Shown here in pieces: positions 6,645-60,823 of a DNA stretch of 64,000 bases. The notes under the pieces were generated by a model, which searched no databases, was not told the DNA's origin, and saw nothing but the letters and a program-made list of their open reading frames with translations. The translations under genes were made by a program, and so were the position numbers. Source of the DNA: a virus. Lineage: Duplodnaviria > Caudoviricetes. The stretch lies in the IMG/VR virus record IMGVR_UViG_3300025437_000009; one strand, 5' to 3'. Numbering within the stretch: position 1 is the stretch's first letter; each line of letters opens with the position of its first letter.

Positions 6645-7370
6645 TTATTTATCGGCCACTACAACCAGCTCGTGAATATTTGAAACCAAACCTGGAGAAA
6701 TTAATGCAATAAAAGTAGTGACACTAGGATCATTTGTGTAAAAATATCCATTCCACATGTAGCTACTAGATTTGGTTAGCATGGTCAAAAATCCATTGGG
6801 TATTTTAACCATTTCTGGCCCAAGAGAATTAAGATAGTTTAGTATGCTGTCCTTAACGTCTTTCGAATACTTACCATCACGGAGCACAACTTTATGGCTA
6901 TAGCCAAGATTCTTTTTGCGTATAATAGCACCAGAATCTAATAAATTCTTTGAAGTATCATCTTCTGGGCCAGTGATATTTTCAATATAGACGTGGTCTT
7001 TGGGACTAAAATATGTATCAATTATAGTTGTTAATTCTTCTTCGGAATTAGCGTATAGTTGTAGTCGAGGCTCTTCAATTCGCATTTTAATATTAGGTAA
7101 TCGCTGATGCCTTAAGGCTTTCATACGCTCAAGGAATTCAGGATCAGCCTTGTCTATATTTTTTGCTAGTCTTTCTCCCCACCATCCTTTGATATTTACG
7201 GATAAGACTCTGCGATGTTCTAATTCATCAACCACTGACCTTTTACTGTCTACAGCACGACCAGCTGGACAAAATACGATTAATCTATATAGATACCGCC
7301 CATAAAACTTTTTAGAAGTATGATCCCGTACAATCTTAGGATTGTACAGAATCCATTTTGATATATCCAT
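6645..7370 (-). CDS. hypothetical protein
   Basis: long ORF following clpA; start codon uncertain. Confidence 0.6.
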   Translation of the reverse strand: MDISKWILYNPKIVRDHTSKKFYGRYLYRLIVFCPAGRAVDSKRSVVDELEHRRVLSVNIKGWWGERLAKNIDKADPEFLERMKALRHQRLPNIKMRIEEPRLQLYANSEEELTTIIDTYFSPKDHVYIENITGPEDDTSKNLLDSGAIIRKKNLGYSHKVVLRDGKYSKDVKDSILNYLNSLGPEMVKIPNGFLTMLTKSSSYMWNGYFYTNDPSVTTFIALISPGLVSNIHELVVVADK

Positions 7371-9624
7371 TAGCATCAATCATAGGAGTTGCTGGGATAA
7401 ATTGACCCAGAGCAGTAAATTCAAAAGCATCATCCCGCCAATCGACTTCAATTACGGTGTGTGCAGGAATAGTGTCGAACAAAATCTTTTTACTTAGTGG
7501 TACTTTAATCAAATCGTTAATCTTACGACCTAAAGGACGAGCACCCATTTTACTATCGTAGCCAACTTCAGCTAAATGATCTGTTGCTGCTTCAGTTAAC
7601 CGAATCTTCAGTGATTTTTCACTTAGTAGATCATTCATTTCGTTAATAAACTTAGCAACAATCTTCTTAATACTGATAGTATCTAACTTATTAAACTTAC
7701 AAACACCATCTAAACGATTGCGGAACTCTGGTTTAAAGAAGTCTTTAACTGCTTTGTCATCTTCACCAGACTTTTGTAATTCACGACCAAAGCCAATGTT
7801 ATTACGTTCGTTATCTGCAGCACCAAGGTTACTGGTAAGAATAATAATGGCGTTACGTGCATCTGCTTTTTTACCGTTACTACTTGTAATAGTACCTTCG
7901 TCCATTAACTGTAGTAAGATATTCATTACATCCGGGTGTGCTTTTTCGACTTCGTCAAATAGAACAACACAGTTAGGATTCTTTTCAATGTCGCTGATTA
8001 ATAATCCGCCACCAAGATTTGAGTCATCATATCCAACATAACCTGGAGGAGCACCAATTAATTTAGCGGCTGCATGCTTTTCTTGATATTCACTCATATC
8101 GTAACGTAGCATCTTCATGCCCATACCTTCGGCCAACAATTTAGCAAGTTCTGTTTTACCAGTACCAGTTGGTCCCAGGAATAAGAAATTACCAATTGGT
8201 TTGTTCATTGATTTTAGTCCAGCACGTGCTACATAAATTTTATCCAGGACTGTATCTACTACAGAATCTTGTCCGTATAGTTTAGTTTTGATTGTTTCTT
8301 CCAGCCCCACAAGACTTTTAGTTGATTCAGATCCAATTTGTTCTGCGGGAATCTTAGTAAACTTACTGATAATGTCAACGATATGACTCTTACGCACAGT
8401 CCATGCTATGGCATTAATTTTTAATTTAGCTGCGGCTGTGTCAATTAAGTCAATGGCTTTGTCTGGTAACTTCTTGTCTGGTTGATAACGAACACTCAAA
8501 TCAACAGCGGCATCAATAGCTTCATCACTGATTGACCCTTCGTGGAATGCTTCAAAATATTCTTTAAGGCCATGTAAGATTTCTTTAGCTACTGCGGGAG
8601 TTGGTTCCTCGATGGTCATACGTACAAAGCGACGCATAAGGGCACGATCTTTTTCAAATGATTGTGTGTATTCTTCCCAAGTGGTTGATGCAATAACTTT
8701 AATTTGTCCTTTGGCCAGTGCAGGTTTAATCATATTAGCAAAGTCTACTGAACTGTTACTAGCTGAACCAGCTCCACGCATTTGATGTGCTTCATCAATA
8801 AACAAGATGCACTTGCCTTTGGCCTGTAGTGCACCAATGACATCTTTAAACTTTTCTTCAAACTCACCACGATATTTAGATCCAGCAAGCAATGACCCAA
8901 TATCTAAATTCCATACTGTGTAGTCGCGTAAGTATTCGGGAACACTACCCTCAACAATATTGCGGGCAAGTCCTTCGGCAATAGCTGTTTTACCCACACC
9001 GGCATCACCAACCATTAAGATATTACACTTGTTACGTTTGGCCAAGACCTGTGCTATTTCATCTAGTTCAAATTCACGTCCGACTACTGGATCAATTTTA
9101 CCGTCTTTGGCCTGCACATTTAAATTTTCACAGTATTCACGTAGAATATCATCGGCACGTGCATTGGCCGGCAAACGTTTGGCTTTACTTTCTACATAAT
9201 TTTGATTATAGAATTCAACCAATTGACTGCGTTCTAATCCATATTTGATAAAGAAATAACTTGCGTGGCTATTTGCTTCGCTGGCTATACTTAAAAAGAT
9301 ATCAATGACTTGTACATGATTACGTCCACTAAACAGGACCTGTGTAAATGCACGATTAAAAATTCTTTCAAGACTGTGAGTTTTCTTTGGAATATGATCT
9401 GCGTCAGGGGAAACTAGATATGTTTGTTTATTTAAATAATCCTCGAGGTCTTTAACTAGAGCATCAGCATCTATACCATAGGCCACAAGTAAATCATTAA
9501 ATGGTTTAAATGTTACAAGTCCGTGTGTTAAGTGTTCTATGGTAACATATTCGTGGTTATAATTTTTTGCTAGATCAGTTGCACTAGCAATAATAACTTC
9601 AATTTCTGGATTGTGTTGGATCAT
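7336..9624 (-). CDS. clpA: ATP-dependent Clp protease ATP-binding subunit ClpA
   Basis: Clp N-domain, two Walker A motifs (GDAGVGKT, GPTGTGKT), GSKYRGEFEE, LIGAPPGYVG, MGARPL; no ClpB middle domain. Confidence 0.92.
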   Translation of the reverse strand: MIQHNPEIEVIIASATDLAKNYNHEYVTIEHLTHGLVTFKPFNDLLVAYGIDADALVKDLEDYLNKQTYLVSPDADHIPKKTHSLERIFNRAFTQVLFSGRNHVQVIDIFLSIASEANSHASYFFIKYGLERSQLVEFYNQNYVESKAKRLPANARADDILREYCENLNVQAKDGKIDPVVGREFELDEIAQVLAKRNKCNILMVGDAGVGKTAIAEGLARNIVEGSVPEYLRDYTVWNLDIGSLLAGSKYRGEFEEKFKDVIGALQAKGKCILFIDEAHQMRGAGSASNSSVDFANMIKPALAKGQIKVIASTTWEEYTQSFEKDRALMRRFVRMTIEEPTPAVAKEILHGLKEYFEAFHEGSISDEAIDAAVDLSVRYQPDKKLPDKAIDLIDTAAAKLKINAIAWTVRKSHIVDIISKFTKIPAEQIGSESTKSLVGLEETIKTKLYGQDSVVDTVLDKIYVARAGLKSMNKPIGNFLFLGPTGTGKTELAKLLAEGMGMKMLRYDMSEYQEKHAAAKLIGAPPGYVGYDDSNLGGGLLISDIEKNPNCVVLFDEVEKAHPDVMNILLQLMDEGTITSSNGKKADARNAIIILTSNLGAADNERNNIGFGRELQKSGEDDKAVKDFFKPEFRNRLDGVCKFNKLDTISIKKIVAKFINEMNDLLSEKSLKIRLTEAATDHLAEVGYDSKMGARPLGRKINDLIKVPLSKKILFDTIPAHTVIEVDWRDDAFEFTALGQFIPATPMIDANGYIKMDSVQS

Positions 9625-9632
9625 AAAAATAT

Positions 9633-10493
9633 TTATTGTGGATTAGTTAATGAACGAACTATTTCTAATTGTTCTGTAGTAAGGTTTTGTGGTACAGTCA
9701 ATGCTACTTCAACGTATAAATCTCCTCGACGATCTGAATTTAATTCGTATAAACCTTGTTCTGGTAATCTAAATTTTATACCAGGTTGAGTTCCGGCAGG
9801 TAAAGTTAATATAAATGTTTTGCTATCTAATCCCACTATGGTAATATCACCACCTGCTGTTGCTAGTAAACAGTTTACACTAGCTCGGTGGTATAAGTCA
9901 ATGCCATTGGTAATAAATCCGTCGGCATTATGTACTTTAAAATGAACATAAAGGTCACCTCGAGGTAAAGTATTGAATAAATTATCTCCAAGTCCGGAAT
10001 ATTTAATTTGTGTACCATTGGTCACACCCCTTGGTATTTTAACTTCTACTGTTTCACGATGACCGTTAGTAGTCTGTACACTGATAGTTTTTGATTGTTC
10101 TTCTAAGGTTGTAACTAGGGGTAATGCAATTTCAATACGCAGGTCTTTGTTGCGTCTTTGTTGTTGTCTAGCTTGTGCAAAAGGATCTCCGCCAAACCCA
10201 AAACCAAAATTTCTAAATATTTCGTCAATGTTGGGATGATTCACGCCACCACTGTGCCAACGGAATATCACATTCTCATCACCGACACCACCACCAAAGC
10301 CATTACGTTGCATGTCATAGTGTTGACGTTTATTTGGGTCACTGAGTGTGTCGTATGCTTGTTGTATTTCTTGAAACTTGGCCTTGTCTCCACCCTTGTC
10401 AGGATGATGCTGACTAGCTAGTTTTCGATAAGCTCGTTTGATTTCGTCGGGAGAAGATTTGTCCCCAACCCCTAAAATTTCGTAATAATTCAT
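9633..10493 (-). CDS. dnaJ: DnaJ/CbpA-class co-chaperone (J domain plus C-terminal domain, no zinc finger)
   Basis: YYEILGV, HHPDKGG (HPD), RGDLYV. Confidence 0.9.
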   Translation of the reverse strand: MNYYEILGVGDKSSPDEIKRAYRKLASQHHPDKGGDKAKFQEIQQAYDTLSDPNKRQHYDMQRNGFGGGVGDENVIFRWHSGGVNHPNIDEIFRNFGFGFGGDPFAQARQQQRRNKDLRIEIALPLVTTLEEQSKTISVQTTNGHRETVEVKIPRGVTNGTQIKYSGLGDNLFNTLPRGDLYVHFKVHNADGFITNGIDLYHRASVNCLLATAGGDITIVGLDSKTFILTLPAGTQPGIKFRLPEQGLYELNSDRRGDLYVEVALTVPQNLTTEQLEIVRSLTNPQ

Positions 10494-54254: not shown

Positions 54255-54290
54255 AACGTAATCCTTTATGATATAGTATTATTTATCATA

Positions 54291-54314
54291 CTAAACCCGC
54301 CGAAGCGGGTTTAG
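54291..54314 (-). terminator. hairpin ending the tmRNA
   Basis: CTAAACCCGC-TTCG-GCGGGTTTAG. Confidence 0.75.
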
Positions 54315-54560
54315 GTTATTTTCTGTTACGAGGTATAACTACCCTAGGCGCTGTTAGGCTGCCAATGCGAACTGTTCGTCGTTTGCGTTTACGTTATTTG
54401 CTTTTTACGTCTACTCCTGACGTGTTGCCTTTGTCGCTATCTCACCATGTCGAAACCAAATACGGGCCCACCGAAATATACTACACAATACACTTCGGTG
54501 GACCCGCCGGGGGTCGAACCCGGGTCCACAATGCCTTTGCTAGAAAGGAATTACAACAAT
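54315..54560 (-). ncRNA. ssrA: circularly permuted two-piece tmRNA, tag (A)ANDEQFALAA
   Basis: T-arm CCGGGTTCGACCCCCGG plus CGGGTCC-A-CC (54497..54523) precedes the 5' end GGGCCCG (54469); G3-U70 pair; tag ORF 54354..54386; outer ends approximate. Confidence 0.9.
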
Positions 54561-54691
54561 TACTTGACTGCTTCTGTGTGCTTGTGCTTCAAGCTCTTCT
54601 TTAGCAGTTTAAACCAAAATTTCTTAACTTTATCAAGGTTATGCTCGATTTCGGCCTTGTAAAGTTTACGAACTAATTTTTCAACTTTCAT
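54560..54691 (-). CDS. small basic protein (43 aa), absent from ORF track
   Basis: GGAGG SD; TTGACC-17-TATAAT at 54711..54739. Confidence 0.65.
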   Translation of the reverse strand: MKVEKLVRKLYKAEIEHNLDKVKKFWFKLLKKSLKHKHTEAVK

Positions 54692-54722
54692 ACAGCCTCC
54701 TTAAAAGTTAATTATACATTAT

Positions 54723-55526
54723 TTATTGAATTTGGTCAACGGTATTTGCGTGTTTTGGACGAGTAACAAACTTTTGTCGAACTGATTCAAATAATTCATA
54801 TTCTTCTGGAGTGATAACCGCCGAATCAATTTCTTTGCGAACAGCCTGATGAAATTCAAATAGTTGCTGGATGTCTGCTTCGTACTTAAAGTATTTGGTA
54901 ATGTGTTTAGTATCATAAGCATCCATAATTAAATGAAATCTATCTTCATTTGAATCATTGCGTATTTGATGCCAATCATTGACCCATACCATATACGCAT
55001 TTCCCGGTTCCATATATAGGTCGGTTCCGTGCATAATAAATTTGCACTTTTCGTTAGTTATCAAAGGTATATGAAGTCTGGCCATATATTCGTGATCGCC
55101 AGAGTCTTTGTGTACTAAACTCTTTGCGCCAGCTTTTAAACAGGTTACACGAGCACGTCTCGGTGTTAGGCCAAATGCTTCTATTTGATCAATGACTTTT
55201 GCGAACTCGCCAACACAGGCCTGAGTTGGTTTATCATGTTCGGTACTCATAGCAATACCAAAAAACTTTAGTGTTTTATAGTTATTAGCGTTCTTAGGAA
55301 AAAATATTTCTAATTCTTTGCCTTCATCGTTTTGAAAATAATCCCAACCGTCACGCCAATCGCCAGTACGAGAAGTAACGGACCAACCACCAAAGCCATG
55401 GTATGCAGGTGTTTCGTATTCTTCGCCTTGAATAACCTGTTGTCCCAATGGAAATATATGTTCCTTAAGATCCTGTACTAACTTACTATGATCGAATGTG
55501 ACCATATCTAATTTTTCATAAAACAT
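54723..55526 (-). CDS. Asp/Asn beta-hydroxylase-like 2OG-Fe(II) oxygenase
   Basis: R.R...L..G....HKD, RLHIPLITN, WH...N.S.EDR.HLIMD. Confidence 0.8.
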   Translation of the reverse strand: MFYEKLDMVTFDHSKLVQDLKEHIFPLGQQVIQGEEYETPAYHGFGGWSVTSRTGDWRDGWDYFQNDEGKELEIFFPKNANNYKTLKFFGIAMSTEHDKPTQACVGEFAKVIDQIEAFGLTPRRARVTCLKAGAKSLVHKDSGDHEYMARLHIPLITNEKCKFIMHGTDLYMEPGNAYMVWVNDWHQIRNDSNEDRFHLIMDAYDTKHITKYFKYEADIQQLFEFHQAVRKEIDSAVITPEEYELFESVRQKFVTRPKHANTVDQIQ

Positions 55527-56058
55527 TTTGAATATCCTTGATCATTTCTTTTACTTCATCAAAACTGTATTTGTTAGTTGCCAATTGTAACACTTCTCGT
55601 ACCGGTTTGTCAAAGTCATCGATTGACACTTCGTGTATTACCTTGTTGTCTATTAGATAAATGTCATACGGATCAGCATTAAATGTTCCCAACAGAGTCA
55701 ACGATTCTTTAGAGTATATATGCCCTTCTCCGTGATCAGCATACTCAATCCCTCCAATACCCAAGTTGTTGGCATACATGTTGGTAGAATATCCGGCTGG
55801 TTGTACGTAGCAATTAAGTCCAGCAGTTTCTACTATGTCAGTGTGCGGCGGTATGTTATCATTTATAACTAATAAACTAGAATAAAAATCACCGTGTACT
55901 TCCTTGGGTAATAAATTATACAATGTTTCCAATATTGTACTTGCTACATCATAGTATCTAATACCATAGAATTTGTCTGCTGGTCTGGTAGCAAACTCTA
56001 TTTGCTTTTTTAAAACAGTTATAAGACCACTAGGTGCTTGACCAACGTACTTAAACAT
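55516..56058 (-). CDS. 2OG-Fe(II) oxygenase-like protein
   Basis: IPPHTD...IHEV (HxD...H). Confidence 0.6.
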   Translation of the reverse strand: MFKYVGQAPSGLITVLKKQIEFATRPADKFYGIRYYDVASTILETLYNLLPKEVHGDFYSSLLVINDNIPPHTDIVETAGLNCYVQPAGYSTNMYANNLGIGGIEYADHGEGHIYSKESLTLLGTFNADPYDIYLIDNKVIHEVSIDDFDKPVREVLQLATNKYSFDEVKEMIKDIQNVL

Positions 56059-56599
56059 CTAACAGTCCGTAATCATTGAGCATAGCGTAAACTTCTGCAT
56101 AGGTCATGTCAGTACTGAGATTAAGAACAAATCTAGGATTGTCTGCTGATAATTCATCTACACTATGTATTGCTGTGGTGTCTAGTAGGTAAACATCGCC
56201 TGGATGCGCTATAAACTGCTCTTCGAAGTTTAAGTTAGTTGGCTTCATACTACATGCACACTCGCCGGCAGTAAACTTTTCAAAGTTACAACCGTTGCAG
56301 TCTTTGGCTAACTCTTTGTAGTCACCAGAATAAAATCTAGTAGTGGCGTTATTTTCTGAAAGATAAATGTTGATCTTACACTGGATGCCTTGGTCTCTGT
56401 GCGGCACAATGCGACCACGCATGGCCAAATGTGTTAGAAAGAATCTCTGCTGATACTCTGGCGGTATAATGATACTGCTGTCGAGATCTACATATGAATA
56501 GGTGGATAAAGTACCGGCGCAGATATATTGAGTACCAAGTAGTTTAAAGTTTTCATATTTGGCAGGGTCAATTGATTTTAAACGAGCATGGTACTTCAT
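56051..56599 (-). CDS. 2OG-Fe(II) oxygenase-like protein
   Basis: IVPHRD...GDVYLLDT..IHSV...R. Confidence 0.6.
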   Translation of the reverse strand: MKYHARLKSIDPAKYENFKLLGTQYICAGTLSTYSYVDLDSSIIIPPEYQQRFFLTHLAMRGRIVPHRDQGIQCKINIYLSENNATTRFYSGDYKELAKDCNGCNFEKFTAGECACSMKPTNLNFEEQFIAHPGDVYLLDTTAIHSVDELSADNPRFVLNLSTDMTYAEVYAMLNDYGLLDV

Positions 56600-57249
56600 A
56601 GTAATCCTTTAATTTTGAGCATAGAATCTACCCAACTTGTTATAACTAATTTATCAGTACTGTCGTCGGTTAGTTTGTAATTAAAATCAGTAGACAAACT
56701 AACACGTAGAGAATTGCTTTTATTTGCCTTAACTCCGTGTAATACATAGGATGGAAAGAAAATTAGGTCTCCAGACACGGGCTGTATATGTTTAATTTGA
56801 GTCTTGTGTTCTCCCACTAACCCAGTATCTAAATAATAAAGTTCTCCGCCTTCTGCGGGAGTAGTTATATAGTAAGTAGAGGCTATAGTCGAATCTGGAT
56901 GTCCGTGAAATTCGATAACTTCGTCAGGTTCTTTTATATTTGGCCAACTCGATAAGGGTGTGAATATGGCCGTATGTGTGTCGGGTAGATAGTCGTTTAC
57001 TGTAAAAGTTATTACATCTACCTTAGTATCTAGTAATTCTTTTAATCGTGGGCTGCTATCAGTATAATCTAATAGACTACTACCAACATTTTTATCTATG
57101 CCCAGTTTAATGTTGCTGGCTATATTGTACAATTCTACCAACAACTCTTGATTAAAGTTATCGTTAAATTTGGTTTTGTAAGTCCAAACAGGACTTTCCC
57201 ATAGTGTTTGTTTTACACTACTTTCGTATATGCCTTTTTCATACGACAT
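56596..57249 (-). CDS. putative 2OG-Fe(II) oxygenase (TIGR02466-like)
   Basis: H.HP.S.I...YY, GDL.FFPS...H.V, R.SLS. Confidence 0.8.
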   Translation of the reverse strand: MSYEKGIYESSVKQTLWESPVWTYKTKFNDNFNQELLVELYNIASNIKLGIDKNVGSSLLDYTDSSPRLKELLDTKVDVITFTVNDYLPDTHTAIFTPLSSWPNIKEPDEVIEFHGHPDSTIASTYYITTPAEGGELYYLDTGLVGEHKTQIKHIQPVSGDLIFFPSYVLHGVKANKSNSLRVSLSTDFNYKLTDDSTDKLVITSWVDSMLKIKGLL

Positions 57250-57252
57250 GAT

Positions 57253-57666
57253 TTAGTTGGTGGTTGGGATTATCCCGTTTTCTTGTTGAAATTTAATCAA
57301 TGGTGCAAAGTCTAGACCTTGTTTTACAGCCAGGTCTTCTGGGAATGGGCGATTGTTTGCGGTCAACCACTCTTTGTATTCTGCTACGATCCAGCTAGGT
57401 GTATAGTCTATGCCCTCATGATGATCGGCTAAGGCTTCATAAAATTCATTACCGTAGCGTACAAAATTTGTAAAAGGTGCGCCCTTTAAAAAGAATAGTG
57501 TATCCAAAATTGGAGAATGATCAGTAATCATTTTAAAAAATTGATCTTTTTCTTCCGCTGATAGGTTATGTATGATTCCGTTTACTTCTGTATCTAAAAA
57601 ATATTTTATACAGTCGTTATATTGGTCTGGTGTTACTTCTTCAAAAATTTTATTCACGTTAGGCAT
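57253..57666 (-). CDS. hypothetical protein (137 aa)
   Basis: coupled ORF within the operon. Confidence 0.6.
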   Translation of the reverse strand: MPNVNKIFEEVTPDQYNDCIKYFLDTEVNGIIHNLSAEEKDQFFKMITDHSPILDTLFFLKGAPFTNFVRYGNEFYEALADHHEGIDYTPSWIVAEYKEWLTANNRPFPEDLAVKQGLDFAPLIKFQQENGIIPTTN

Positions 57667-58656
57667 TTATGCTTCCTTTAACAATTTTGATTTAACACGG
57701 CCGAATAAATTTTTAACATTGAGTATTGCCTTGCCAGTGTAGTAACTGAAATACAATAAAGATAAAATAGTCCAAGAAGTAAAGAAACCGTGTTTTCTAT
57801 ATTTGCGCGGCACTCTTGGAATACTACCAAAGAATTTACACAAAGGACGACCGATGGACATTAAGATACGACCATAGTCGTTGTCTTTGTTTAGAGTACC
57901 CATAATATAGGCCATATGCTCTGACCATGGTTGGCCAACACGATATAGTATATCTGTGGCAAATTCTTTTTGTTTGAGCTTACGTTCTTCTTTGTCTAAA
58001 ATCCAAGGCATAAAGTCTGGACCATGACCATCCATCCATTGAGTACAAATCTTAGCCCACTTGATGTAGCCACGATAAATTGTTTTATCTTTTTTACGTA
58101 GAACTCGACCGTATGCTTGGTCTGCTGACCAAACTTCTTGGCTCATCATTCCCATGTCGTAGAATTTAGCACAAACAATCTTAGAGCAGTTGCAAGCACA
58201 GTTACAGTTGTAGCTTACCAGGCCAGTATTGCAATTATAACTTACTGCACCACCGCAGTTACAATTATATGTACAGGCACAATTACAGTTGGACTGTAAC
58301 CACGCTTGACCGTCGCAGTTAGCACAGTTTACATTAGTTGAACAGTTAGCACAGTTCGAACAATCACTAGGACCAGCAATAACACAATTAGTACACTGAA
58401 TATTACCACAGTTACAGTTGTTGGTACAGTTGCCATTAGGGCCGCCCGATGGCGAACAGTTGCCGTTGTTACAGTTGCCTTGGTTGTTATTTTGAAAATA
58501 AGTTAAACCATAGAATCCCTGTAGGTGTGGGGTGCCGGGACGTTGCCCTGGCGTGATTAAATTGTTAAGAAAACTTAGACTAGCGGAATACCCGGGACGT
58601 CCAGTTTCTGAAAGAATTTGGCTAACTGATATAGGGCCGGATGATGGTAGTGTCAT
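57667..58656 (-). CDS. Asn-Cys-repeat protein: virion-type N-terminus, 22-Cys core, KIVC domain, C-terminal TM
   Basis: MTLPSSGPIS start; Cys-rich residues 62-157; own TAAATA 7 nt upstream. Confidence 0.75.
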   Translation of the reverse strand: MTLPSSGPISVSQILSETGRPGYSASLSFLNNLITPGQRPGTPHLQGFYGLTYFQNNNQGNCNNGNCSPSGGPNGNCTNNCNCGNIQCTNCVIAGPSDCSNCANCSTNVNCANCDGQAWLQSNCNCACTYNCNCGGAVSYNCNTGLVSYNCNCACNCSKIVCAKFYDMGMMSQEVWSADQAYGRVLRKKDKTIYRGYIKWAKICTQWMDGHGPDFMPWILDKEERKLKQKEFATDILYRVGQPWSEHMAYIMGTLNKDNDYGRILMSIGRPLCKFFGSIPRVPRKYRKHGFFTSWTILSLLYFSYYTGKAILNVKNLFGRVKSKLLKEA

Positions 58657-59375
58657 AGTATAGTATTTATCTTGATCAAATTAAGAAACTCTAGTATTTT
58701 TATATAGCACCATCCTAGGTCAATTTCAAACCAACGTTTAGCAAAATTTGCACAGGCCGGAAACTCGTGATGATTATTGTGCAGTTCTTCACCACAGCCT
58801 AGTAGTCCCAAAGGTAAAACATTTGTACTGGTATCGGGCCTATCATAGTTCCTGTAACCAATTTTGTGCCCAAATCCAGTGATAGTGGCATTTACAAACA
58901 GACTCACGGAAAACATGTGCACCAGCCAGGCCACAATACCTAGCCAGCCAAATAAACCAATGTTTATTGTTAGTAGTATTAACAGGCCTAATTTTGTATG
59001 GCAGTAGACATTCTTTTCTAACCAATTCTCTTTAAAATCACGACTGAAGTGTGCGGTTTCCCAATCGGTATTCCAATATTGGTATTCTCTAAAAAAGTTA
59101 GGTATTAAACAATGTCCAGTGACCCGCCAAAAACCAGATAATAACGGACTATGCGGATCACCGTGTACATCGGTAAACATATGATGTATTCGATGTTGGG
59201 CAATAAATGGCTTGGGATAGATTCCCTCGGTTATCCAGAACAAAAAACGGAATACATGCTCGACTATAGGATACTTGATTGTATACTGCCGATGTATCAA
59301 GTATCTATGCAGATATATCGATGTTAATACTATACCAAGATGTGCTGTACATATAGTATATACAACAACGTCCAT
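58653..59375 (-). CDS. membrane fatty-acid desaturase (delta-9 type)
   Basis: His boxes HRYLIH, HRIHH, HNNHH; GDPHSP; EIDLGW. Confidence 0.88.
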   Translation of the reverse strand: MDVVVYTICTAHLGIVLTSIYLHRYLIHRQYTIKYPIVEHVFRFLFWITEGIYPKPFIAQHRIHHMFTDVHGDPHSPLLSGFWRVTGHCLIPNFFREYQYWNTDWETAHFSRDFKENWLEKNVYCHTKLGLLILLTINIGLFGWLGIVAWLVHMFSVSLFVNATITGFGHKIGYRNYDRPDTSTNVLPLGLLGCGEELHNNHHEFPACANFAKRWFEIDLGWCYIKILEFLNLIKINTIL

Positions 59376-60823
59376 TATGCGCTTTCTACGCGGCTTTTCC
59401 CATAAACTTCAACATCATCGATGGTACCAATTTTTTCTGCTACCACTTTAATAGGAATAATCTTCTTAACGGCCTTTTCCTTGTGTTCGTAGATAGTGCC
59501 AAAAATATCCTGGCGTTCTAATGGTAGTGCATCATTTTTAATCAGTGTAGGAATATAACCCGTTATTTTTTCTATAGCTAGGGCAAAAAGAGCCACATTG
59601 TCTGAATAAGCATTGGCACAAGATATTTCCCAAAACTTATTGTCTAAGAACATACAAGCACCCTTACAGACATGCAACACTGGGCAACTGGGGCATTCTG
59701 CACGATTTGACCAATGTGTTGAAGTTTTGATTGCTACATTATCATAGTCATCTAATGTACCGCCTAGGTGACTTTCACCGTTTTTGCTGGTTTCTACTGC
59801 TGAGACGTTTTGACAGGTTATCACATTGCCACGCAGGTCCACAGCGATTGCACGTTGATCATCCATGCCACATTTTTGTCCTAGGGTATCTGCTTCTTGG
59901 TGTGTTAGTACACTTTTAATAAATCCGTCAATCTTACCTAATTGTCCGGTAAATCCAATACGACCTTGGGTTGAAAAAATATCCGCAAATGCAGTACGTC
60001 TAAAATCAAAATGTTCTTCTAGGGTTTGTAGACTGTTGCTCATACCCTCTTCGTCATAAGCATCAACAATAGAACCTTCACCTAACTGTATGTCGGGATT
60101 TCCTGTTAGTTCTACAAACCAATCATAAATTGCCTTACGGCTTTTATTTTTAGCATGCAACATGGGGTTGAAACTGATGCCTTTTTTCAATCGACTCATC
60201 ATGCGATAAAAACCTAATAGTCTTTTCTTTTGGTCTGGATCATCAAACGGATCTGGTCCGCGAACTGACTGCCCAGGACCGTCATGTGAGATACTAACTG
60301 AAAAATTTAGTGCCATTAACCAATCAATCATTTCGTCGGTTAGAATACTACCGTTGGTAATAACAGAAAATAATGGTTTACGTTTCCAGTCTTTAAATCT
60401 TTCTAATAGTGCTTCAGCTAGGGGTTTGAAAGTTTTCCAATAGACAAATGGCTCACCTCCCCAAAACTCTACCTTAAGTCCATCTTCTTCACTGAACTCT
60501 AATACATCCAATTTGGCAAGAAAAGCATCAATATCTTTCTTACTAGTTTCTGGAGCACGCTCTACAAATTTTTGTGAACAGTAATCACAGGTGTAGTTAC
60601 AACTCAGTCCAAGTTGAATTTTTAATAGTTGAATGCCGCGGGATTTTTTAAGAGGACGGTCGCGGTCGAAAGGTATATAAGGTTCTAGTCCCTCTATCTT
60701 GTATGAACCCTTTGGATATTCGTACAAGTTACCTTGTTCGTCTTTGAGTGTATTGGCTTGATTGTCGTAATAAAAAATACGTTTATCGTCGGTGCTGCGT
60801 TCAGCATGAATTTCAAATAGCAT
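59375..60823 (-). CDS. radical SAM/SPASM-domain enzyme (peptide-maturase type)
   Basis: CNYTCDYC; FWGGEP; TNG; S.SHDG; SPASM CG...G.V..C...C..C.....C.G.C....C. Confidence 0.92.
   Translation of the reverse strand: MLFEIHAERSTDDKRIFYYDNQANTLKDEQGNLYEYPKGSYKIEGLEPYIPFDRDRPLKKSRGIQLLKIQLGLSCNYTCDYCSQKFVERAPETSKKDIDAFLAKLDVLEFSEEDGLKVEFWGGEPFVYWKTFKPLAEALLERFKDWKRKPLFSVITNGSILTDEMIDWLMALNFSVSISHDGPGQSVRGPDPFDDPDQKKRLLGFYRMMSRLKKGISFNPMLHAKNKSRKAIYDWFVELTGNPDIQLGEGSIVDAYDEEGMSNSLQTLEEHFDFRRTAFADIFSTQGRIGFTGQLGKIDGFIKSVLTHQEADTLGQKCGMDDQRAIAVDLRGNVITCQNVSAVETSKNGESHLGGTLDDYDNVAIKTSTHWSNRAECPSCPVLHVCKGACMFLDNKFWEISCANAYSDNVALFALAIEKITGYIPTLIKNDALPLERQDIFGTIYEHKEKAVKKIIPIKVVAEKIGTIDDVEVYGKSRVESA

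What the first reader, a model, noticed from the sequence alone, without database searches (positions are those of the whole stretch)
54291..54560. Phage-encoded circularly permuted (two-piece) tmRNA
Seen: the acceptor piece (T-arm, CGGGUCC-A-CC) comes first, then a 27-nt spacer closed by ACCGAA/TTCGGT, then the coding piece starting GGGCCCG with G3-U70 and the tag ANDEQFALAA. The 3' end is encoded as ACCG rather than ACCA. Known: permuted tmRNAs occur in Alphaproteobacteria, some cyanobacteria and some Betaproteobacteria. It is compact and co-transcribed with a 43-aa basic ORF from a sigma70 promoter. Inference: it keeps ribosome rescue running when host tRNA/tmRNA is attacked.
Basis: partly seen in the sequence, partly recalled or inferred. 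Interest (0 to 1): 0.65.

Follow-up and report, generated by a model that had tools for sequence, protein, structure and literature searches.

The report
Two-piece tmRNA gene in freshwater jumbo phage
A giant uncultured lake-water phage carries its own complete gene for tmRNA, the RNA that frees stalled ribosomes, written in the swapped "two-piece" order; it is real and probably works, but phage copies of this kind are already known, so it is a solid annotation, not a discovery.

Summary
ARAGORN calls a permuted tmRNA with tag ANDEQFALAA. Rfam gives beta_tmRNA 186.9 bits (cut-off 84) and tmRNA_permuted 132 bits.

The window is part of an uncultured freshwater T4-like/Rak2-like jumbo phage. Its relatives are IMG/VR contigs of up to 374 kb. 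A permuted tmRNA was found in 8 of 9 large relatives searched. In 14 distinct copies the acceptor and T stems change by compensating substitutions, G3:U70 never changes, and the ALAA end of the tag varies only synonymously.

Complete relatives encode no SmpB, CCA-adding enzyme or integrase. The RNA must therefore use host factors, and it is not an attachment-site relic.

The "ACCG" end and the compact size are normal for the betaproteobacterial type. The 27-nt spacer is the short, empty form of a slot that is 24-104 nt long in relatives. The 43-aa ORF is probably a real gene and probably co-transcribed, but it is not a conserved partner of the tmRNA.

Phage two-piece tmRNAs are published (53 listed in 2022; 79 unique phage tmRNAs of all forms in the 2025 database), and this scan has found them repeatedly on other DNA. 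My verdict is a new member of a known kind, of low to moderate interest.

The parts
54711..54739 (-). Sigma70-type promoter TTGACC-17 nt-TATAAT, the likely start of the transcript that carries the small ORF and the tmRNA.
   Evidence: 11 of 12 consensus positions. No other minus-strand promoter-like site lies between it and the tmRNA. Relatives have TTGACA/G-17-TATAAT either directly before the tmRNA or before a tRNA-tmRNA pair.
54560..54691 (-). 43-aa basic ORF (MKVEKLVRKLYKAE...), preceded by AAGGAGG at 54702-54696. Its stop codon TAA (54562-54560) overlaps the first conserved base of the tmRNA.
   Evidence: It has weak homologues, about 52 aa long with the same MK..KLVRKLYKA start, in L101, L029 and L042, not next to a tmRNA. 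No Pfam or PHROG family matched.
54497..54560 (-). Acceptor piece. It comprises AUUGUUG...; the strands that pair with the coding piece; the T arm at 54523-54507; the acceptor 3' strand CGGGUCC at 54506-54500; discriminator A at 54499; and CC at 54498-54497.
   Evidence: Rfam alignments, direct reading. The conserved start ATTGTTGTAA is present in all 14 distinct relatives. In three relative types a promoter lies 6-7 nt before it.
54470..54496 (-). 27-nt intervening segment that is removed on maturation. Its ends extend the acceptor stem into a 21-bp hairpin with a 4-nt loop.
   Evidence: -35.1 kcal/mol, z -9.3. Relatives have 24-104 nt at this place with the same conserved ends.
54289..54469 (-). 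Coding piece. It comprises the 5' acceptor strand GGGCCCG (54469-54463, with G3:U), the UGGUUUCGAC motif, the strands pairing with the acceptor piece, a small hairpin, the tag frame, a post-tag hairpin and a terminal hairpin.
   Evidence: Rfam RF01850 full-length match, model positions 1-331. Covariation in relatives.
54354..54386 (-). Tag reading frame with resume codon GCA, coding ANDEQFALAA, stop UAA.
   Evidence: ARAGORN, direct reading. Across relatives, positions 4-6 of the tag vary, while the ALAA codons vary only synonymously (GCA/GCC/GCG, TTG/TTA, GCC/GCT/GCG).
54291..54314 (-). Terminal GC-rich hairpin CUAAACCCGC-UUCG-GCGGGUUUAG, a likely terminator or 3' stabiliser. Here it is followed by AGUAUGAU instead of a run of U.
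   Evidence: -17.1 kcal/mol, z -5.1. Relatives have a hairpin with covarying pairs at the same place, most followed by a run of U.

Best explanation
This is a working, phage-encoded two-piece tmRNA of the betaproteobacterial type.

Likely maturation:
- Host RNA polymerase transcribes it early from the sigma70-type promoter at 54739-54711, on one RNA with the 43-aa ORF.
- The precursor folds so that the acceptor stem and spacer form a 21-bp hairpin.
- Host RNase P cuts before G54469, which separates the two pieces.
- Host exonucleases trim the 27-nt trailer back to ...ACC.
- Host CCA-adding enzyme adds the terminal A.
- The 5' end near 54560 is made by an endonuclease cut in the A/U-rich junction.

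Likely action:
- The two pieces stay base-paired.
- Host AlaRS charges them with alanine through G3:U70.
- With host SmpB and EF-Tu they enter ribosomes stalled at the ends of broken mRNAs.
- This adds rescue capacity while the phage shuts down the host and needs every ribosome.
- The rescued peptides receive the tag ANDEQFALAA. Clp proteases recognise its ALAA end. The phage encodes its own ClpA, and its relatives encode ClpP, so the tagged peptides can be degraded and their amino acids reused.

What is shown: the gene's identity and integrity, its conservation with compensating changes, its phage context, and the absence of SmpB, CCA-adding enzyme and integrase in complete relatives.

What is inferred: expression, processing, charging and the benefit to the phage.
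For: - Identity: ARAGORN and two Rfam models score far above their cut-offs.
- Selection: 14 distinct copies from 21 IMG/VR contigs keep all 7 acceptor pairs through compensating changes (CGGGUCC/GGGCCCG, CGGAUCC/GGGUCCG, CAUCUCC/GGGGAUG, CACCUCC/GGGGGUG, AUGCUCC/GGGGCAU). G3:U70 is invariant. T-stem pairs covary. 23 of 57 predicted pairs show changes on both sides. The ALAA codons change only synonymously.
- Phage context in the window: clamp loader, ATP-dependent ligase, tail-fibre-like proteins, ClpA and DnaJ.
- Phage context in relatives: ligase relatives are IMG/VR contigs of up to 374 kb. A permuted tmRNA was found in 8 of 9 large relatives searched, one of them below the RF01850 cut-off.
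- Dependence on host factors: no SmpB (PF01668) in four relatives, and no CCA-adding enzyme (PF01743) in the same four; two of these are rated 100% complete.
- Early expression: strong sigma70-type promoters in front of the tmRNA or its operon, here and in relatives.
- Degradation arm: the 762-aa protein at 7336-9624 is a full-length ClpA homologue (620 bits to E. coli ClpA, one stretch). ClpP was found in 7 of 9 large relatives.
- From established knowledge: ClpXP and ClpAP degrade ssrA-tagged proteins.
Against: - There is no expression, processing or charging evidence of any kind. No RNA run holding this DNA was listed.
- ClpP was not found inside this window, and the window's whole genome is not held. 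ClpP in this particular phage is therefore assumed from relatives.
- The terminal hairpin lacks a clear run of U here.
- The tmRNA has no promoter of its own, so its level depends on processing out of an mRNA.
- The host is unknown, so compatibility with host SmpB and AlaRS is assumed.
- ClpA and DnaJ in Rak2-like jumbo phages have been given other explanations, as stress chaperones (PMC6102473).
Confidence: 0.7

Rival explanations
1. The phage copy is insurance against host defence or toxin nucleases that cut host tRNA or tmRNA during infection, replacing what is destroyed so that ribosome rescue continues.
For: By earlier notes of this scan, which I did not check, the same genome carries a tRNA array elsewhere. 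Phage tRNA sets are often explained as replacements for cleaved host tRNAs (own knowledge). The tmRNA is under early-type promoters.
Against: Nothing in the sequence differs from cellular beta-type tmRNAs in a way that suggests nuclease resistance. The tag, the resume context and the loops are canonical. No defence nuclease that targets tmRNA in the unknown host is indicated. The simpler supply argument explains the same facts.
Confidence: 0.12
2. The RNA acts against the host rather than for it. It would compete with host tmRNA for SmpB and stalled ribosomes, or sense the level of stalling, and so redirect or block host quality control. A CDS-less tmRNA-like RNA of mycobacteriophage DS6A is reported to inhibit E. 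coli tmRNA.
For: No SmpB in the phage relatives, so the RNA must take host SmpB. The DS6A precedent is cited in PMC11915505. More distant clade members have long, unusual tags.
Against: Here the tag frame is intact, canonical and conserved with synonymous changes. That pattern is expected for a tag that is translated and recognised, not for a decoy.
Confidence: 0.08
3. It is a passenger: a recently captured host gene, a relic of an integration site, or host chromosome wrongly taken for phage, with no role in infection.
For: tmRNA genes are common integration sites, and prophages can carry fragments of them (PMC9004378).
Against: The gene is complete. It is kept, with covariation, in contigs whose ligase is only 60-83% identical. 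Its core is only about 62% identical to two of the three cellular beta-type genes found, but 74-82% identical to other phage copies. No integrase (PF00589) was found in two complete relatives. The only 'bacterial' contig with a permuted copy and this tag is itself a phage contig binned into a Haliscomenobacter MAG.
Confidence: 0.03

Closest known systems
Cellular two-piece tmRNA of a betaproteobacterial lineage (Rfam RF01850 beta_tmRNA; Sharkady & Williams 2004, as cited in PMC9004378)
   Same: Same gene order and piece sizes. Same short spacer: the two cellular copies parsed have 25 and 31 nt (after taking off the two C). Same helices between the pieces. Same UGGUUUCGAC motif, UAAA(C/U)-GCA resume context and AND..(F/Y)ALAA-type tag. 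The terminal A of CCA is usually not encoded. The window scores 186.9 bits, and three cellular Burkholderiales genes score 169-296 bits.
   Different: It sits in a phage genome. Its core is only about 62% identical to two of the three cellular copies found. It has no promoter directly in front, whereas the cellular genes have a TATAAT-like -10 box just upstream. Only 3 of 151 Burkholderiales genomes sampled have this form.
Phage two-piece tmRNAs of marine T4-like myophages (Methylophilales phage Melnitz, pelagimyophages; Buchholz et al. 2022, PMC9004378)
   Same: A complete permuted ssrA in a lytic, aquatic, T4-like phage, downstream of an early promoter and without an integrase. That paper counts 53 two-piece tmRNAs in 18,146 phage genomes, 50 of them from aquatic samples.
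   Different: Melnitz's gene is of the alphaproteobacterial type and is reported to carry a glutamine riboswitch. The gene here is of the beta type, and Rfam found no riboswitch anywhere in the window. The phage is a freshwater jumbo phage, not a phage of about 140 kb.
Unannotated beta-type permuted tmRNAs in Synechococcus phage BUCT-ZZ01 (ON615601) and Ralstonia jumbo phage RsoM2USA (MG752970)
   Same: About 80% identical to the window over 67-77 nt spanning the tag frame and the stretch just before it. Both score above the cut-offs of RF01850 and RF04321. Both are large lytic phages.
   Different: Lower scores (92-94 bits). Longer or different tags (ANDETFSMALAA; ARAGORN's tag call for RsoM2USA is doubtful). 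The phages are unrelated: the best cultured ligase match to the window is only 37% identical.
One-piece phage tmRNAs (cluster C1 mycobacteriophages) and tmRNAs of huge phages (Al-Shayeb et al. 2020, PMC7162821)
   Same: Large phages carrying ribosome-rescue RNA along with other translation genes.
   Different: Those of mycobacteriophages are in the standard one-piece form. Some huge phages also carry SmpB (PMC7162821), which was not found in this clade.

Membership tests
tmRNA, permuted (two-piece) form, betaproteobacterial type (RF01850 / RF04321) | Covariance-model score above the curated gathering threshold over the full model. | tested here: met
   RF01850: 186.9 bits against 84, model positions 1-331. 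RF04321: 132.1 bits against 47, positions 1-213.
tmRNA, permuted (two-piece) form, betaproteobacterial type (RF01850 / RF04321) | Permuted order: the acceptor (3') piece is encoded before the coding (5') piece, separated by an intervening segment. | tested here: met
   Acceptor piece 54560-54497, spacer 54496-54470, coding piece 54469-54289, all on the minus strand.
tmRNA, permuted (two-piece) form, betaproteobacterial type (RF01850 / RF04321) | tRNA-Ala-like top half: a 7-bp acceptor stem with G3:U70, discriminator A, and a T arm with a UUCGA-type loop. | tested here: met
   GGGCCCG pairs with CGGGUCC, including G3:U. A54499 is the discriminator. T arm is CCGGG-UUCGACC-CCCGG. G3:U is invariant, with compensating changes around it, in 14 distinct relatives.
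tmRNA, permuted (two-piece) form, betaproteobacterial type (RF01850 / RF04321) | Tag reading frame with an alanine resume codon, a hydrophobic ALAA-type end and a stop codon. | tested here: met
   GCA...GCC UAA codes ANDEQFALAA. Relatives show synonymous changes in ALAA.
tmRNA, permuted (two-piece) form, betaproteobacterial type (RF01850 / RF04321) | Structure maintained by selection (covariation across homologues). | tested here: met
   23 of 57 RNAalifold pairs have changes on both sides. There are five acceptor-stem variants, all fully paired. The pairing partner of the 5' UGUUG could not be settled, because both candidate partners are invariant.
tmRNA, permuted (two-piece) form, betaproteobacterial type (RF01850 / RF04321) | Maturation into two base-paired RNAs, CCA completion, alanylation and tagging activity. 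| not testable with these tools
   No RNA run holding this DNA was listed. This needs Northern blot or RACE, and charging and tagging assays.
Trans-translation system (tmRNA plus SmpB) | A dedicated SmpB partner encoded by the same genome. | tested here: not met
   PF01668 was not found in four relatives, two of them rated 100% complete. Controls gave a match in 10 of 14 genomes. The window's own genome is not held. The phage therefore carries only the RNA half and must use host SmpB.
Phage (not host) origin of the locus | Phage hallmark genes around it, and synteny with viral contigs. | tested here: met
   Clamp loader, ligase and tail-fibre-like proteins in the window. 596 IMG/VR ligase relatives, with the tmRNA 2-7 kb upstream of the ligase in the closest four. 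No integrase in complete relatives.

The most novel reading that the evidence does not exclude
In this clade of freshwater jumbo phages the tmRNA may be the front end of a phage-owned tag-and-degrade pathway, not a simple spare part. The phage would supply the tagging RNA, the unfoldase ClpA, the peptidase ClpP and DnaJ, and borrow only SmpB. Nascent chains on host mRNAs broken during takeover would then be turned into amino acids for phage protein synthesis. The gene would also serve as a cargo slot: relatives place small SD-led ORFs inside the excised spacer, and the window shows the empty 27-nt state.
Probability: 0.2. Interest if true: 0.5.

Novelty: new member of a known kind. Interest (0 to 1): 0.25.

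Why it matters
It adds a well-supported case of a phage carrying the RNA half of the ribosome-rescue system. The case comes from an uncultured, widespread freshwater jumbo-phage clade, and two cultured phages (BUCT-ZZ01, RsoM2USA) turn out to have the same gene type unannotated.

It shows that the betaproteobacterial two-piece form circulates among unrelated phages. It also shows that such phages lack SmpB but carry ClpA and ClpP. That gives a testable idea of why phages keep tmRNA: ribosome supply plus amino-acid recycling.

It does not change what is known about tmRNA itself.

Tried and rejected
- Exact 31-mer of the T arm and acceptor strand in IMG/VR: no match, so the window's own phage is not in that collection.
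- Megablast of 24 kb against cultured phages: no match. The best cultured ligase relative is only 37% identical.
- The whole genome of the window is not held.
- Host inference by tag: ANDEQFALAA occurs in 41 bacterial loci (Rhodocyclaceae including Uliginosibacterium and Dechloromonas, Limnobacter, Pasteurellaceae). Thirty-nine of these are one-piece genes, one gave no ARAGORN call, and one is permuted but lies on a phage contig binned into a Haliscomenobacter MAG. The host therefore stays unknown; the AND-type tag only points loosely to Beta- or Gammaproteobacteria.
- A promoter between the 43-aa ORF and the tmRNA: none. The TTGAAG that Rfam aligns to the cellular -35 box has no usable -10 box.
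- The 43-aa ORF and the downstream 104-aa ORF: no Pfam or PHROG family.
- ClpP inside the window: not found by tblastn.
- Sharkady & Williams 2004 (PMC516066) could not be read.
- Sequencing runs: no RNA holder listed. DNA holders are freshwater or lake metagenomes. I did not lay reads.
- In one search I gave wrong coordinates for two phage rows (L102, L098). Those two rows are meaningless, and only the window-versus-cellular rows were used.
- RNAalifold pairs the 5' UGUUG with UAACA after the tag, whereas Rfam pairs it with CAACA. Both partners are invariant, so covariation cannot decide.

Full report
**What is there**

The flagged stretch holds a circularly permuted tmRNA gene on the minus strand. 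ARAGORN reports one gene in the whole 64-kb window, a permuted tmRNA with tag ANDEQFALAA. Rfam reports a full-length match to RF01850 beta_tmRNA (54606-54289, 186.9 bits, gathering score 84, E 1.5e-58). It also reports a match to the general permuted model RF04321 (54558-54354, 132.1 bits, gathering score 47).

- The acceptor piece comes first. Its T arm is CCGGG-UUCGACC-CCCGG.
- The acceptor strand is CGGGUCC, followed by discriminator A, then CC, then G where the terminal A of CCA would be (54496).
- A 27-nt spacer follows (54496-54470), closed by ACCGAA/UUCGGU.
- The coding piece starts GGGCCCG (54469-54463) and pairs perfectly with the acceptor strand through G3:U.
- The tag frame is at 54386-54354.

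The acceptor stem and the spacer together form one uninterrupted 21-bp hairpin (-35.1 kcal/mol; shuffled sequences average -12.7; z -9.3).

**Is it a phage?**

Yes. GC content is an even 37-42% across the window, and the genes are tightly packed, mostly on the minus strand. The window encodes:
- a clamp loader, an ATP-dependent DNA ligase, tail-fibre-like proteins and a 3-TM holin-like protein;
- a full-length ClpA homologue, with DnaJ directly next to it.

The ClpA-DnaJ pair is the arrangement described for Rak2-like jumbo phages such as Atu_ph07 (PMC6102473).

The ligase has 596 relatives in IMG/VR. The closest are 83% identical and lie on contigs of 157-357 kb, two of them rated 100% complete. 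No cultured phage is close: there is no megablast match, and the best ligase identity is 37%. DNA runs that hold the stretch are freshwater or lake metagenomes.

**Is the RNA under selection?**

The four closest ligase relatives carry a permuted tmRNA 2-7 kb upstream of the ligase, as the window does. A pattern taken from the coding piece found 21 IMG/VR contigs, which give 14 distinct sequences including the window.

- All copies in which both strands could be read keep seven acceptor pairs, in five different sequence versions. The G3:U pair never changes.
- The T stem has at least five versions.
- RNAalifold finds 23 of 57 pairs with changes on both sides.
- In the tag, positions 4-6 vary (EQF, NTF, NVY, SVY, SQF). 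The ALAA codons vary only at synonymous sites.
- The window's core is 74-82% identical to the other phage copies. It is about 62% identical to two of the three cellular beta-type genes found among 151 Burkholderiales genomes.
- A permuted tmRNA was found in 8 of 9 large contigs of the wider clade, one of them below the RF01850 cut-off.

This is a maintained gene, not a relic.

1. *ACCG instead of ACCA.* The base after ACC is G, A or T among the phage copies. One group lacks even the CC (CAUCUCC-AAAAAG). The three cellular genes have T, C and A. The tmRNA database paper states that this position does not always encode CCA. No CCA-adding enzyme was found in four relatives, two of them complete, so I infer that the host enzyme completes the end.

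2. *Compactness.* The sizes of the pieces and the spacer match the cellular beta type; the two cellular copies parsed have spacers of 25 and 31 nt. Within the phage clade the spacer ranges over 24, 27, 56-58, 81 and 93-104 nt. Its conserved ends (AAGUGUAUU ... AGUAUAUUU) form the base of the extended helix. The window therefore has the short form.

3. *Co-transcription with the 43-aa ORF.* This is plausible.
   - The only good minus-strand promoter is TTGACC-17-TATAAT at 54739-54711.
   - An AAGGAGG site precedes the ORF.
   - There is no promoter or terminator between the ORF and the RNA.
   - The ORF's stop codon overlaps the first conserved base of the RNA.

   But the pairing of ORF and RNA is not conserved. 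Three relative types have TTGACA/G-17-TATAAT just 6-7 nt before ATTGTTG, which also marks the likely mature 5' end. Others have a 26-aa hydrophobic ORF, a CspA-like gene, or a tRNA(CAU) in front. The 43-aa ORF resembles a 52-aa protein in L101, L029 and L042. In L101 that gene lies about 4.7 kb from the tmRNA, and the L029 and L042 loci hold no tmRNA call. The ORF is probably a real small gene whose promoter the tmRNA now shares. It is not a dedicated RNA-binding partner.

**How it most likely works**

The sequence has what a tmRNA needs, judged against established knowledge of the E. coli and Caulobacter systems:
- alanine identity (G3:U70 and discriminator A);
- the UGGUUUCGAC motif at the D-loop position;
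- U and A at positions -5 and -4 before the resume codon;
- a ten-codon tag ending in ALAA.

No SmpB was found in four relatives, two of them complete. The RNA must therefore use host SmpB, and also host AlaRS, EF-Tu, RNase P and CCA-adding enzyme.

One RNase P cut before G54469 would separate the two pieces. Exonucleases would then trim the 27-nt trailer. The 5' end, where there is no adjacent promoter, needs an endonuclease cut in the A/U-rich junction. These steps are inferred.

The most economical purpose is extra rescue capacity during takeover, when host mRNAs are being broken and host transcription falls. Tagged peptides would be fed to Clp proteases. The phage's own ClpA, and ClpP in 7 of 9 large relatives, fit this. 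ClpP was not found in the window itself.

**Rival readings**

- A decoy role is unlikely, given the conserved canonical tag.
- A passenger gene or attachment-site relic is excluded by the gene's completeness, its covariation, and the lack of an integrase in complete relatives.

**Comparison with what is known**

Phage tmRNAs, including two-piece ones, are in print.
- Buchholz et al. 2022 found tmRNA genes in 402 of 18,146 phage genomes, comprising 133 unique tmRNAs. Of those, 53 were two-piece and 50 of the 53 came from aquatic samples. They discuss the same possible roles.
- The 2025 tmRNA database lists 79 unique phage tmRNA sequences.
- Huge phages with tmRNA and SmpB are mentioned in Al-Shayeb et al. 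2020.
- A Sinorhizobium jumbo phage related to Atu_ph07 is annotated with a tmRNA.

This scan has also noted phage two-piece tmRNAs many times on other DNA, including protein genes inside the spacer.

What is modestly new here:
- the beta type in a freshwater jumbo-phage clade;
- the unannotated beta-type copies in Synechococcus phage BUCT-ZZ01 and Ralstonia phage RsoM2USA;
- the combination of tmRNA, ClpA and ClpP without SmpB.

**Verdict**

- Observation: confirmed.
- Interpretation: partly supported.
- Novelty: a new member of a known kind.
- Interest: 0.25.

Noticed in passing
L097/L099 (spacer within L097:2505-2857), L096:5437-5782, L093/L111 (L093:6351-6685): In relatives with long tmRNA spacers, the excised segment holds a small ORF preceded by a Shine-Dalgarno site. 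The ORFs code hydrophobic peptides: MFNDWHWTYLWGIAVVANYLFWIV... (L097/L099), MFEHGIYFWGIAATVNLWFWLIV... (L096) and MDHEAVLLGAFVLIGLVLVFF (L093/L111). The window has the empty 27-nt form. This agrees with earlier notes of this scan on other genomes.
   Followed up: partly
window 7336-9624 (-) and 9633-10493 (-): A full-length ClpA homologue (762 aa; 620 bits to E. coli ClpA over residues 5-720) lies directly next to a DnaJ homologue (286 aa). ClpP (PF00574, 207-270 bits) is present in 7 of 9 large relatives but was not found in this window. Together with the tmRNA, this could form a phage-owned tag-and-degrade route.
   Followed up: partly
L001 (ON615601 115456-118532) and L002 (MG752970 330230-333297): Synechococcus phage BUCT-ZZ01 and Ralstonia jumbo phage RsoM2USA each hold a beta-type permuted tmRNA (RF01850 at 92-94 bits, RF04321 at 97-112 bits). 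Neither GenBank record annotates any feature there.
   Followed up: partly
L114 / L154 (NZ_JBBAKG010000090.1, 23-kb contig of a 'Haliscomenobacter sp.' MAG): This contig carries a permuted tmRNA with the same tag, and its proteins match the IMG/VR phage loci. It is a jumbo-phage contig binned into a bacterial MAG. That is either contamination or a weak hint to the host.
   Followed up: partly
L001:2871-2946, L012:14249-14324, L055:9539-9614, L174:1887-1961: ARAGORN calls tRNAs with anticodon CUA (amber suppressors, labelled tRNA-Pyl) in three contigs of the clade and in cyanophage BUCT-ZZ01. This may point to TAG read-through or recoding in these phages.
   Followed up: no
L172:1470-2025, L055:4353-4874, L027:1445-1893: More distant clade members have permuted tmRNAs for which ARAGORN reads long tags of 28-32 residues (for example ANTSKFGTAKVSMGRGFRFGTRSAEAVAA). 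ARAGORN fails altogether on others that Rfam detects (L089, L090, L175). The tag region is much more variable outside the window's subclade.
   Followed up: no
L098/L105 (L098:1254-1650, minus strand): In these contigs the tmRNA follows a tRNA(CAU) by 14 nt, under a single TTGACA-17-TATAAT promoter. This is a tRNA-tmRNA co-transcript with a 24-nt spacer, the shortest seen.
   Followed up: no
window 54723-60823 (-): Directly upstream of the tmRNA operon lie genes for Asp/Asn beta-hydroxylase-like and 2OG-Fe(II) oxygenases, a fatty-acid-desaturase-like protein and a radical SAM protein.
   Followed up: no
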